Source of the DNA: a virus
Taxonomy: Duplodnaviria > Heunggongvirae > Uroviricota > Caudoviricetes
IMG/VR virus record: IMGVR_UViG_3300001199_000001
Coordinates: 69,404-133,403 of that record
DNA length: 64,000 nucleotides
Reading direction: 5' to 3' (one strand)
Made by a program: the position numbers and the translations under genes. The notes below the pieces were generated by a model. It was not told the DNA's origin. It was given only the letters and a program-made list of their open reading frames with translations, and did not search any database. Shown piece by piece: positions 15,819 through 17,008 of the stretch (its first letter is position 1; each line of letters begins with the position of its first letter).

Positions 15819-15847
15819 TTGACACAGCGGAAACGCTGTGTTAAAAC
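15819..15847 (+). promoter_or_regulatory. Promoter of module D (His/Ala/Ser tRNAs)
   Basis: TTGACA-N17-TAAAAC. Confidence 0.75.
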
Positions 15848-15854
15848 CCCCGAC

Positions 15855-15959
15855 ATGATCAAGACCGCAACCCATTCGAGCGCCCATAGCTCCGCCGCAT
15901 CAGCGGCGTCGAGTACGGCTGCTCGTGCGGTCTCCGCCTCCGCCAGCAGCCTCTCCTAA
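15855..15959 (+). CDS. Leader peptide D, MIKTATHSSAHSSAASAASSTAARAVSASASSLS
   Basis: 12 Ser, 11 Ala and 2 His in 34 codons, upstream of His, 3 Ala and 4 Ser tRNAs. Confidence 0.88.
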   Translation: MIKTATHSSAHSSAASAASSTAARAVSASASSLS

Positions 15960-16016
15960 ACCTCCCTTTCGGCAAGTCCATCGATCCGGTGAACTTCCCC
16001 AAAGGGAGGTTTATTT
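15959..16016 (+). terminator. Putative attenuator hairpin D
   Basis: AACCTCCCTTT/AAAGGGAGGTT followed by TATTT, just before tRNA-His. Confidence 0.65.
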
Positions 16017-16018
16017 AA

Positions 16019-16093
16019 GCTGGGTTGTGGTAATGGCTAACCGGTCAGGTTGTGTCCCTGAAGATGATCGTTCGAGTCGGTCACCCAGTACCA
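16019..16093 (+). tRNA. trnH: tRNA-His(GTG), no encoded G-1, A73
   Basis: Loop TT-GTG-TC, CCA; alphaproteobacterial-type identity. Confidence 0.88.
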
Positions 16094-16102
16094 TATATTT
16101 TT

Positions 16103-16174
16103 GGGGTAGGTGCGGGAGCACAGGTTTCCTTTGCAAGGAGACCGCGATGGGTTCGAGTCCCATATACTCCACCA
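16103..16174 (+). tRNA. trnA: tRNA-Ala(TGC)
   Basis: G3:U70, loop TT-TGC-AA, compact D-arm, CCA. Confidence 0.85.
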
Positions 16175-16180
16175 AACATT

Positions 16181-16256
16181 GGGGTGCTAGCTCATCCGGT
16201 AGAGCGTTTCTATGGCATGGAAAAGGTGAGGAGTTCGAGTCTCCTGCACTCCACCA
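16181..16256 (+). tRNA. trnA: tRNA-Ala(GGC)
   Basis: G3:U70, loop AT-GGC-AT, CCA. Confidence 0.92.
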
Positions 16257-16265
16257 AACTAAAAC

Positions 16266-16341
16266 GGGCCTGTAGCTCATCTGGTAGAGCGCGTCGTTCG
16301 CAATGACGAGGTAAGCGGTTCGATCCCGCTCAGGTCCACCA
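16266..16341 (+). tRNA. trnA: tRNA-Ala(CGC)
   Basis: G3:U70, loop TT-CGC-AA, CCA. Confidence 0.95.
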
Positions 16342-16546
16342 ACGAGGAGGATGCGATGTCATCGCGCCAAGCTATGAACTGCTCTTCGATCTCTGGATAG
16401 ACCTTGTCACTTATTGCGATGCAGGTCCAGAGGCGAAAGAGTTTCGAAGGCGGCAGGATGATATCGCCCGTCTTTATAAGAGAATGGATTATCGCGAGCA
16501 GGGAGCGTTTCATCGCCTGATCGCAGTGTGGAGATAATAAAATCAA

Positions 16547-16634
16547 GGTAGGATGGCAGAGAGGCTTATTGCACCTGTTTCGAAAACAGGAGGACCGCAA
16601 GGTTCCGGGGGTTCAAATCCCTCTCCTACCTCCA
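16547..16634 (+). tRNA. trnS: tRNA-Ser(CGA)
   Basis: Long V-arm, loop TT-CGA-AA, CCA. Confidence 0.93.
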
Positions 16635-16639
16635 ATTAA

Positions 16640-16731
16640 GGTGATGTGGCAGAGTCCGGTTTATTGCGTCGGTCTTGAAAACCGAAGAACCTGAGAGGGT
16701 TCCGTGAGTTCGAATCTCACCGTCACCGCCA
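16640..16731 (+). tRNA. trnS: tRNA-Ser(TGA)
   Basis: Long V-arm, loop CT-TGA-AA, CCA. Confidence 0.95.
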
Positions 16732-16828
16732 TTTAAGGCCAGAGGCCCCTGTAAGGCTTTTGGCTATATGGGTAGCTCCCAGCCCGTCGAAGGGGCGACC
16801 GGAGATGTCCTAGAGTTACCGTGTACAC

Positions 16829-16917
16829 GGGTAGTTGGCTGAGATGGCTTAAGGCGGCGCTTTGCTAAAGCGTTGAACCGCAAGGTTCCACAGGTTCGAA
16901 TCCTGTACTACCCGCCA
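16829..16917 (+). tRNA. trnS: tRNA-Ser(GCT)
   Basis: Long V-arm, loop TT-GCT-AA, CCA. Confidence 0.95.
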
Positions 16918-16918
16918 C

Positions 16919-17008
16919 GGATGGGTGGCTGAGAGGCTTAAGGTGTCGCCCTGGAAAGGCGATGATCCCGTAAGGGGTCCGCGAGTTCGAATCTCGCCCC
17001 ATCCGCCA
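16919..17008 (+). tRNA. trnS: tRNA-Ser(GGA)
   Basis: Long V-arm, loop CT-GGA-AA, CCA. Confidence 0.95.

What the first reader, a model, noticed from the sequence alone, without database searches (positions are those of the whole stretch)
15819..17008. Module D: Ser/Ala/His leader ahead of His, Ala x3 and Ser x4 tRNAs
25 of 34 codons are Ser (12), Ala (11) or His (2). All four Ser anticodon classes (TCG, TCA, TCC, AGC/AGT) and all three Ala classes (GCA, GCC/GCT, GCG) are represented. An 11-bp stem with a short U-tract begins at the stop codon (15959-16016). The antiterminator is less obvious than in B and E.
Basis: partly seen in the sequence, partly recalled or inferred. Interest (0 to 1): 0.88.

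Follow-up and report, generated by a model that had tools for sequence, protein, structure and literature searches.

The report
Codon-matched leader before phage Ser/Ala/His tRNAs
A giant Caulobacter-type phage puts a 34-codon mini-gene made almost only of Ser, Ala and His codons, then a strong transcription stop, directly in front of its His, Ala and Ser tRNA genes, so it probably ties making these tRNAs to how well ribosomes read those codons; I found no published account of such control of tRNA genes.

Summary
A TTGACA promoter (15819) is followed 30 nt later by an ATG with no Shine-Dalgarno sequence. The ORF (15855-15959) has 12 Ser, 11 Ala and 2 His codons among 34. A hairpin of -30.6 kcal/mol starts at the stop codon, and its U-tract abuts tRNA-His.

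This ORF is the single most Ser/Ala/His-rich of 213,617 stop-free 33-residue windows in the 279-kb genome. It is one of five or six such units in this phage.

Relatives (phiCbK, CcrColossus, CcrRogue, Brevundimonas phages) have one merged leader rich in Pro/Thr/Lys/Leu/His/Ala/Ser before one merged tRNA cluster. This phage has three clusters, each with its own leader, and each leader carries only the codons of its own cluster. That tie between codons and tRNAs is strong evidence of function.

The switch itself is not shown. Modules B and E have clear antiterminators; D has none. Only a ribosome on codons 32-34 or on the stop codon disturbs the terminator, so the direction of regulation is open.

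This scan has noted the same kind of unit in many other phages. I found no paper describing it. Verdict: real; a new variant of leader-peptide attenuation; mechanism for D partly supported.

The parts
15819..15824 (+). -35 hexamer TTGACA of the module D promoter
   Evidence: The exact layout TTGACA-N17-N6-N7-ATG occurs 8 times in the 279-kb genome. Five of these are in the tRNA region: the ORF before Trp/Gly and leaders B, C, D and E.
15824..15839 (+). Palindrome ACAGCG-N4-CGCTGT in the promoter spacer, operator-like
   Evidence: This pattern occurs twice in the window, in the spacers of the B and D promoters only. The number expected by chance is 0.02. Its function was not tested.
15842..15847 (+). 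-10-like hexamer TAAAAC, 7 nt before the ATG
   Evidence: The spacing implies a leaderless or nearly leaderless mRNA, and there is no Shine-Dalgarno sequence. The transcription start site was not measured.
15855..15959 (+). Leader ORF: 34 codons plus TAA, with 12 Ser, 11 Ala and 2 His
15862..15933 (+). Hairpin inside the ORF (codons 3-26); possible pause or timing element
   Evidence: The ORF folds to -40.1 kcal/mol, z = -3.3 against shuffles. With a ribosome on codons 1-15, the 3' half refolds with 15945-15951 (GGCUGCU with AGCAGCC), but this does not touch the terminator.
15933..15956 (+). Unstructured C-rich linker: codons 27-34 (Ser Ala Ser Ala Ser Ser Leu Ser), ending at the terminator's foot
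   Evidence: This stretch is unpaired in the minimum-energy fold. Only a ribosome on codons 32-34 or on the stop codon removes the terminator's core pairs.
15957..16013 (+). Long terminator hairpin (T-long); its 5' arm begins at the stop codon
   Evidence: Energy -30.6 kcal/mol, z = -7.3. Core pair probability is 1.00 for ribosome positions at codons 1-31.
15993..16010 (+). Short fallback hairpin (T-short): ACUUCCC / GGGAGGU, using the same 3' arm
   Evidence: Energy -8.8 kcal/mol. It forms when the 5' arm of T-long is covered. The barrier from the inner hairpin is only about 6 kcal/mol. The terminator scan listed it.
16010..16018 (+). U-tract TTTATTTAA, ending one base before tRNA-His
16019..16341 (+). 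tRNA-His(gtg), tRNA-Ala(tgc), tRNA-Ala(ggc) and tRNA-Ala(cgc)
   Evidence: ARAGORN. Rfam finds three of the four. Ala(tgc) at 16103-16174 is atypical and is not listed by Rfam at E <= 0.1.
16547..17008 (+). tRNA-Ser(cga), (tga), (gct) and (gga)
   Evidence: ARAGORN and Rfam at 50.7-57.6 bits.

Best explanation
Module D is a sensory leader unit for a block of phage tRNA genes.

Proposed sequence of events:
1. The host RNA polymerase starts at a sigma-70-type promoter, so that the transcript begins at or within 2 nt of the AUG.
2. A 70S ribosome translates a 34-codon ORF in which 25 codons are read by the eight tRNAs encoded just downstream.
3. A long intrinsic terminator, whose 5' arm starts at the stop codon, normally stops transcription one base before tRNA-His.
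4. D has no RNA antiterminator, so the only link between translation and termination is physical. A ribosome held on the last, Ser-rich codons (AGC AGC CUC UCC) or on the stop codon covers the foot of the terminator.
5. The strong hairpin (-30.6 kcal/mol) is then replaced by a weak one (-8.8 kcal/mol), and the polymerase reads on into the tRNA genes.

My preferred reading is demand-driven, as in modules B and E: slow decoding gives more tRNA.

Shown here: the parts, their order, the codon match and its co-variation among phages. Inferred: that the ORF is translated, that termination occurs at the hairpin, that a ribosome occludes it, and the direction of the response.
For: 1. Codon match. 25 of 34 codons are Ser/Ala/His. 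This is unique among 213,617 windows of the genome, with binomial P = 1.4e-12. 76% of the codons are read by the module's own cluster, against 12% or less for the other clusters. The leader-by-cluster matrix is diagonal.

2. Layout. Only 8 sites in the genome have TTGACA-N17-N6-N7-ATG. Four of them head ORFs of 28-34 codons, and each of those four precedes a tRNA cluster. Leaderless mRNAs are common and well translated in Caulobacter (PMC4117421).

3. Co-variation among phages.
- CcrColossus, phiCbK, CcrRogue, Magneto, Gurke and Bajun each have one leader of 39-45 codons. Between 86% and 95% of its residues (the start codon left out) are Pro/Thr/Lys/Leu/His/Ala/Ser. It precedes one merged cluster of exactly those tRNAs.
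- This phage has three clusters with three leaders whose codon sets are partitioned. For B against D, Fisher P = 3.8e-7. For the 3x3 table, P = 5.9e-7.
- Internal Met codons occur only in leader B of this phage, the only one of these clusters with a tRNA-Met.
- Only this phage has Cys inside the Tyr/Phe/Val/Ile/Gln/Asn/Arg-rich stretch of its E leader, and only it has a tRNA-Cys. Gurke has two Cys codons in the 3' tail of its E leader and no tRNA-Cys.

4. Terminator. The hairpin has z = -7.3 and a U-tract, with no room for another promoter before tRNA-His.

5. Sister modules work classically. The regulatory codons are 3-16 in B and 5-19 in E.
- In B, an 11-bp antiterminator (11956-11966 with 12028-12038) stays paired when the ribosome sits at codons 1-12, weakens at 13-14, and is lost at codons 15-25.
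- In E, the antiterminator forms with the ribosome at codons 1-15 and is lost at codons 16-26.

6. Occlusion in D. The terminator's core pairs drop from 1.00 to 0.00 only when the ribosome is at codons 32-35.
Against: - No antiterminator exists in D. The terminator's 5' arm is unpaired (probability 0.25 or less) in every stall state before the 3' arm is made.
- Stalls at codons 1-30 leave the terminator at probability 1.00. Both His codons (7 and 11) fall in this range.
- On a simple timing argument, slow decoding upstream should therefore give more termination, not less.
- When the 5' arm is covered, a second hairpin next to the same U-tract still forms quickly, so occlusion weakens the terminator rather than removing it.
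- There is no direct evidence of translation, of a 5' end at the ATG, or of 3' ends at the U-tract.
- The module has no sequence homologue outside this genome, so its structure cannot be checked by covariation.
Confidence: 0.4

Rival explanations
1. Same parts, opposite sign. Read-through needs fast decoding. A ribosome that keeps pace with the polymerase is on the stop codon when the 3' arm emerges and blocks the strong hairpin. A hungry ribosome lags, the hairpin closes, and tRNA synthesis stops. This would be a stringent-like licence: no new tRNA is made when Ser, Ala or His cannot be charged.
For: - Stalls at codons 1-30 leave the terminator intact, and only positions 32-35 disturb it.
- The cognate codons are spread over the whole ORF, like a cumulative timer. 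Both His codons lie early.
- No antiterminator exists.
Against: - Sister modules B and E have geometry that turns transcription on when the ribosome is held at the regulatory codons.
- Positive feedback on tRNA supply would fail exactly when host tRNAs run short.
- The last eight codons are the densest Ser/Ala run and sit next to the terminator's foot, which fits sensing there.
Confidence: 0.2
2. The codon-matched ORF is translated and matters, but not through this hairpin. The hairpin would be a constitutive, leaky terminator that also insulates the tRNA block from the upstream peptidase-ORF90 transcription unit. The leader would then act through Rho access to its C-rich 3' part, through precursor processing or stability, or be a relic of the ancestral merged leader.
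For: - No terminator lies between ORF90 (which ends at 15814) and the hairpin, so upstream transcripts would also end there.
- No RNA switch was found.
- The stretch 15934-15972 is C-rich and unpaired.
Against: - A relic would not be more specialised than its relatives. D has 76% Ser/Ala/His and no Pro codon, one Lys and one Leu, while the merged leaders carry all seven amino acids.
- A promoter placed 140 nt upstream of a strong constitutive terminator would be wasteful.
Confidence: 0.2
3. The ORF is not translated, and its composition is a chance product of GC-rich, low-complexity DNA or of RNA-structure constraints.
For: - An open frame of 34 codons is not rare at 56% G+C (my estimate is about 0.27).
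- Ser AGC and Ala GCU codons are mutually complementary and help build the hairpins inside the ORF.
Against: - The composition is unique in the genome.
- It is specific to the frame that starts 7 nt after the -10 hexamer.
- It mirrors the adjacent tRNAs here and in four other modules.
- It co-varies with cluster content across six other phages.
Confidence: 0.05
4. The 34-residue Ser/Ala-rich peptide is itself the product, with a function of its own.
For: Some attenuator leader peptides act in trans, for example peTrpL of Sinorhizobium (PMC7298713, listed).
Against: - No homologue of the peptide was found.
- In the related leaders, set membership is kept but not residue positions.
- The composition follows the tRNAs.
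Confidence: 0.03

Closest known systems
Multivalent leader-peptide transcription attenuators of amino-acid operons (hisL, thrL, ilvL, leuL, trpL of enterobacteria)
   Same: A promoter, then a short ORF packed with codons of the amino acids concerned, then an intrinsic terminator before the regulated genes. Several amino acids are polled by one leader, as in thrL and ilvL. Modules B and E of this phage also have the antiterminator.
   Different: The regulated genes are tRNA genes, not biosynthetic enzymes. The mRNA looks leaderless. Module D has no antiterminator, and its terminator starts at the stop codon.
pheM leader of pheST (phenylalanyl-tRNA synthetase) and T-box leaders of aminoacyl-tRNA synthetase genes
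   Same: The supply of charged tRNA controls genes of the translation apparatus by attenuation.
   Different: pheST is a synthetase operon polled for one amino acid. T-box leaders read uncharged tRNA directly by RNA-RNA contact, without a ribosome. No T-box or other Rfam leader family was found at 6000-22000.
Ribosome-occlusion attenuators (pyrBI leader, ampC attenuator of E. coli; from my own knowledge, not checked in a paper here)
   Same: A ribosome next to or on the terminator's 5' arm prevents hairpin closure. No RNA antiterminator is needed.
   Different: In pyrBI the ORF runs through the terminator, and coupling is set by UTP-dependent pausing. In ampC a start-stop minicistron reports ribosome abundance. 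Neither polls specific codons.
Polycysteine leaderless short ORFs of mycobacteria ('ribulon'; bioRxiv 10.1101/834739)
   Same: A leaderless sensory short ORF. Ribosomes stalled on cognate codons change the downstream RNA structure. Several independent units share one signal.
   Different: Those units control translation of cysteine-metabolism genes by freeing a ribosome-binding site. Here the output is read-through of a terminator into tRNA genes, in a phage.
Codon-matched leader units before tRNA clusters in other phages
   Same: A small ORF written in the codons of the downstream tRNAs, plus a terminator, with several units per genome.
   Different: These are AI notes on unrelated phage lineages and I did not check them. 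D differs from the units described there in lacking the switchable antiterminator.

Membership tests
Leader-peptide transcription attenuator (trpL/hisL/thrL type) | A promoter followed by a short ORF on the same strand, upstream of the regulated genes | tested here: met
   TTGACA-N17-TAAAAC-N7-ATG, a 34-codon ORF, then eight tRNA genes.
Leader-peptide transcription attenuator (trpL/hisL/thrL type) | The ORF is enriched in codons of the amino acids to which the regulated genes relate | tested here: met
   25 of 34 codons; unique in the genome; own-cluster match 0.76 against 0.12 or less.
Leader-peptide transcription attenuator (trpL/hisL/thrL type) | An intrinsic terminator lies between the ORF and the regulated genes | tested here: met
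   A hairpin at 15957-16013 of -30.6 kcal/mol, z = -7.3, followed by TTTATTTAA. This is a prediction only; 3' ends were not measured.
Leader-peptide transcription attenuator (trpL/hisL/thrL type) | An antiterminator that pairs with the terminator's 5' arm and depends on the ribosome's position | tested here: not met
   No partner for 15960-15969 appears in any stall state. The feature is met in sister modules B and E.
Leader-peptide transcription attenuator (trpL/hisL/thrL type) | The leader is translated, and regulation needs its start codon | not testable with these tools
No ribosome profiling data were available.
Ribosome-occlusion attenuator (pyrBI/ampC type) | The terminator's 5' arm lies within the footprint of a ribosome translating or ending the leader ORF | tested here: met
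   The stem starts at the stop codon. The core pairs are lost with the A site at codons 32-35, using a footprint of -15 to +14 nt.
Ribosome-occlusion attenuator (pyrBI/ampC type) | Occlusion removes every hairpin next to the U-tract | tested here: not met
   A 7-bp fallback hairpin of -8.8 kcal/mol forms with a low barrier. The terminator is weakened, not abolished.
T-box leader | Specifier loop and T-box sequence, recognised by the Rfam model | tested here: not met
   The Rfam scan of 6000-22000 at E <= 0.1 finds tRNAs and weak chance hits to plastid UTR families that overlap tRNA genes, and no T-box or other leader family.
Codon-matched leader units of Dolichocephalovirinae phages (defined here) | The leader's amino-acid set equals the amino-acid set of the tRNA cluster that follows, and changes with it between phages | tested here: met
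   A merged leader with a merged cluster in six relatives; three partitioned leaders with three clusters here; Met and Cys cases.

The most novel reading that the evidence does not exclude
Phages of the phiCbK group run a ribosome-read homeostat for their own tRNA pools. Each tRNA block is transcribed according to how fast ribosomes decode that block's codons on a leaderless test ORF. This phage shows the system evolving: an ancestral seven-amino-acid leader has been split into three specialised ones. Module D has replaced the RNA antiterminator with direct ribosome occlusion of a terminator that starts at the stop codon.
Probability: 0.4. Interest if true: 0.9.

Novelty: new variant of a known kind. 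Interest (0 to 1): 0.8.

Why it matters
Why phages carry tRNA genes has been debated for decades. The proposed reasons are codon compensation, replacing degraded host tRNAs, and escaping anticodon nucleases (PMC10264068, listed). How their expression is controlled is little explored.

A leader ORF that polls exactly the codons served by the adjacent tRNA genes would mean that the phage measures decoding capacity and adjusts tRNA supply block by block.

The family-wide finding makes this testable in an established model. The merged leader is present in phiCbK, where it is annotated only as hypothetical protein gp335 (L002:4858-4995). Its host, Caulobacter crescentus, is genetically tractable and translates leaderless mRNAs well.

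Module D adds a natural experiment: the split into partitioned leaders, and a variant without an antiterminator.

Tried and rejected
1. Homologues of module D. All searches came back empty: the adjacent 90-aa ORF and the M15 peptidase in viral contigs, the 90-aa ORF in the large protein collection (only itself), and the leader peptide by tblastn in phages (no match). A structural covariation test is therefore not possible.

2. The weak peptidase DNA match to Brevundimonas phage Marchewka lies in a lysis cassette, not a tRNA region.

3. Antiterminator search in D. I ran equilibrium folds with a ribosome mask at each codon, both with the 3' arm present and before it is made. None was found.

4. 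Kinetic trap. I tested whether the inner hairpin traps the RNA so that occlusion leaves the U-tract without any hairpin. I rejected this, because the barrier to the short hairpin is only about 6 kcal/mol.

5. The same equilibrium stall scan on the phiCbK merged leader was uninformative. The antiterminator is predicted in almost every state, so the sign of regulation in the relatives could not be derived this way.

6. My first stall scan of module B used a start coordinate one base off. It was repeated correctly.

7. Sequencing runs.

8. Literature. Eight full-text searches and the phiCbK genome paper gave no description of leader peptides or attenuation before tRNA genes. This covers the held library only.

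Full report
**What the window is.** The window is bases 69404-133403 of a single 278,859-bp contig with 56% G+C. It carries 39 tRNA genes by ARAGORN. Rfam adds two more, Glu and Asp at 10593-10740. Gene order matches the tRNA region of Caulobacter phage CcrColossus and other Dolichocephalovirinae: a giant lectin-like protein, then Trp-Gly-Gly, Glu-Asp, Pro...Ser, then Val-Ile-Gln-Asn-Arg, then PhoH. DNA similarity is limited to the tRNAs, so this is a distant relative.

TTGACA (15819-15824), a 17-nt spacer, TAAAAC, 7 nt, then ATG (15855) with no Shine-Dalgarno sequence.
- The ORF has 34 codons: 12 Ser, 11 Ala and 2 His. It uses every codon class read by the eight tRNAs that follow at 16019-17008.
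- Against a proteome background of 0.185 for Ser+Ala+His, the binomial P is 1.4e-12.
- It is the only one of 213,617 stop-free 33-residue windows in six frames with 25 or more such residues.
- The stop codon is the first base of a hairpin spanning 15957-16013 (-30.6 kcal/mol, z = -7.3). This is followed by TTTATTTAA, which ends one base before tRNA-His.

**It is one unit of a system.**
- The exact promoter-to-ATG layout occurs eight times in the genome. Five are in the tRNA region, and the four that head ORFs of 28-34 codons each precede a tRNA cluster.
- The matrix of leader composition against cluster content is diagonal:

| Leader | Amino acids | Share of leader | Fold over proteome |
|---|---|---|---|
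| B | Pro/Met/Thr/Lys | 0.53 | 3.0 |
| C | Leu | 0.19 | 2.2 |
| D | His/Ala/Ser | 0.76 | 4.1 |
| E | Tyr/Phe/Val/Ile/Gln/Asn/Arg/Cys | 0.56 | 1.7 |
| A | Glu/Asp | 0.15 | 1.2 (weak) |

- Leader C holds four different Leu codons in a row.
- At codon level, D matches its own tRNAs at 0.76 and the other clusters at 0.12 or less.

**Relatives give the strongest argument.**
- CcrColossus, phiCbK, CcrRogue, Magneto and the Brevundimonas phages Gurke and Bajun each have a single ORF of 39-45 codons. Examples are L001:7706-7825 and L002:4858-4995. The phiCbK ORF is annotated as hypothetical gp335, and the CcrColossus one is unannotated.
- Between 86% and 95% of its residues (the start codon left out) are Pro, Thr, Lys, Leu, His, Ala or Ser, against 42.5% in this phage's proteome.
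- It precedes a single cluster that holds tRNAs for just these seven amino acids, once ARAGORN's threshold is relaxed.
- In the window's phage the same tRNAs form three transcription units, and the leader codons are partitioned with them. B has 16 Pro/Thr/Lys/Met codons and 2 His/Ala/Ser; D has 4 and 25 (Fisher P = 3.8e-7; 3x3 table P = 5.9e-7).
- Two further changes go the same way. Only this phage's B cluster has a tRNA-Met, and only its leader has internal Met codons. Only its E cluster has a tRNA-Cys, and only its E leader has Cys inside the Tyr/Phe/Val/Ile/Gln/Asn/Arg-rich stretch. Gurke's E leader has two Cys codons in its 3' tail and no tRNA-Cys.
- D shares its promoter core, a spacer palindrome and its first codons (Met-Ile-Lys-Thr against Met-Ile-Thr-Lys-Thr) with B. 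This suggests an origin by duplication, followed by re-specialisation.
- A remnant of a longer gene or a chance low-complexity frame does not explain these facts.

**Likely translation.** The -35 hexamer ends exactly 30 nt before the start codon in B, C, D and E. The distance is 30-33 nt in the A and E leaders of the relatives that show a -35-like hexamer (all but CcrRogue's E leader), while the merged leaders have longer 5' regions. This fits leaderless mRNAs, which are frequent and efficiently translated in Caulobacter (PMC4117421). Leaderless sensory short ORFs are known in mycobacteria (bioRxiv 10.1101/834739). No RNA or ribosome data could be consulted.

**Mechanism.** I masked a ribosome footprint at each codon and folded the rest. 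Modules B and E behave as classical attenuators.
- In B, 11956-11966 pairs with the terminator's 5' arm (12028-12038). The pairing holds with the ribosome at codons 1-12, weakens at 13-14 and is lost at codons 15-25; the regulatory codons are 3-16.
- In E, 18848-18855 pairs with 18927-18934 in the same manner.
- D is different. The terminator's pyrimidine-rich 5' arm has no partner in any state.
- With the full transcript, D's terminator forms at probability 1.00 for ribosome positions 1-31.
- Only a ribosome on codons 32-34 (AGC, CUC, UCC) or on the stop codon removes the core pairs. The 3' arm then folds with 15993-15999 into a 7-bp hairpin of -8.8 kcal/mol, over a barrier of about 6 kcal/mol.
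- D therefore looks like an occlusion-type attenuator with a strong and a weak terminator state, not a three- or four-region switch.

**The direction cannot be read from the sequence.**
- A ribosome parked on the terminal Ser-rich run would favour read-through. This is demand-driven, like B and E.
- Stalls anywhere upstream, including both His codons, leave the strong terminator intact. This favours the opposite reading: read-through only when decoding keeps pace.
- I prefer the demand-driven reading (0.4) because of the sister modules and the dense Ser/Ala run next to the terminator's foot. I give the inverse reading 0.2. I give 0.2 to a reading in which the hairpin is a constitutive, leaky terminator and insulator for the upstream peptidase-ORF90 unit.

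**Comparison with known systems.** D works like a multivalent leader-peptide attenuator (thrL, ilvL, hisL). It fails one defining feature of that family, the antiterminator. It is closer in mechanics to ribosome-occlusion attenuators (pyrBI, ampC; from my own knowledge). No T-box or other Rfam leader family is present. The target, tRNA genes of a phage, is what is new.

**Prior knowledge.** Eight full-text searches and the phiCbK genome paper gave no description of such control. [quoted passage not shown] This scan, however, has noted codon-matched leaders before tRNA clusters in many other phage genomes and on this same window. Those are unchecked AI notes, and I did not count them as evidence.

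**Verdict.** The feature is real and far from chance, and it is conserved as a principle across a phage subfamily with tractable members. The attenuation reading is well supported for the system as a whole. For module D, it is supported for the parts and the codon logic but not for the switch.

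Noticed in passing
window 11875-11892 and 15824-15839: The palindrome ACAGCG-N4-6-CGCTGT lies in the spacer between -35 and -10 of the B and D promoters only. There are two matches in the window against 0.02 expected. It may be an operator for a shared regulator, or a trace of promoter duplication.
   Followed up: partly
L002:4858-4995 (phiCbK gp335), L001:7706-7825 (CcrColossus, unannotated), L003:5774-5911, L005:7769-7906, L006:7787-7915: Published Dolichocephalovirinae genomes carry a conserved ORF of 39-45 codons made of Pro/Thr/Lys/Leu/His/Ala/Ser before their merged tRNA cluster. In phiCbK, CcrRogue, Gurke and Bajun it is followed by a canonical terminator; CcrColossus has only a hairpin without a U-tract. 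It is annotated as a hypothetical protein or not at all.
   Followed up: yes
L002:5273-5345, 5920-5996, 6260-6346; L001:8262-8331, 9075-9164, 14807-14968: With a relaxed ARAGORN threshold, phiCbK and CcrColossus show in-register tRNA-like genes in the gaps of their clusters: Thr, His, Ser-gct in phiCbK and Thr, Ser-cga, Tyr, Phe in CcrColossus. The genome paper says that Thr and Tyr tRNAs are absent from all of these phages and that His is found only in Colossus. These may be non-canonical tRNAs.
   Followed up: partly
window 16103-16174: tRNA-Ala(tgc) is atypical. ARAGORN places the anticodon at position 30, and Rfam does not list it at E <= 0.1. A similar gene sits at L001:9001-9073 in CcrColossus, where relaxed ARAGORN calls it Leu(caa).
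   Followed up: no
window 16343-16535: Between tRNA-Ala(cgc) and tRNA-Ser(cga) there is a frame open for 64 codons that reads like a real small protein. It has no ATG, GTG or TTG before its last third. It may use an unusual start codon or be a decayed gene.
   Followed up: no
window 16732-16828: The 97-nt spacer between tRNA-Ser(tga) and tRNA-Ser(gct) folds strongly (-38.6 kcal/mol). It includes an 11-bp hairpin at 16737-16765 whose 3' arm carries a run of four U. This may be an internal terminator or a processing site that splits the Ser genes.
   Followed up: no
window 17018-17112, minus strand: A 95-nt tRNA-like gene, called Ile(tat), has a long extra arm and lies convergent to the module D cluster. 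Its length is unusual for an Ile tRNA.
   Followed up: no
window 10499-10564 and relatives (L001:6399-6464, L002:3399-3461, L005:6688-6753, L006:7361-7426): The small ORF before tRNA-Glu/Asp has only 3 cognate codons. In four of the five sequences listed here a Glu-Arg-Glu ... Gly-Arg/Leu-Asp-Thr core is kept; Bajun has Glu-Ser-Glu. In this phage the stop codon lies in the loop of a GCCGCC/GGCGGC hairpin.
   Followed up: partly
window 6897-7145: The 82-aa ORF before tRNA-Trp/Gly/Gly has the same leaderless promoter layout and a similar start (Met-Leu-Lys-Thr) as the leaders, but it is not enriched in Trp or Gly.
   Followed up: no
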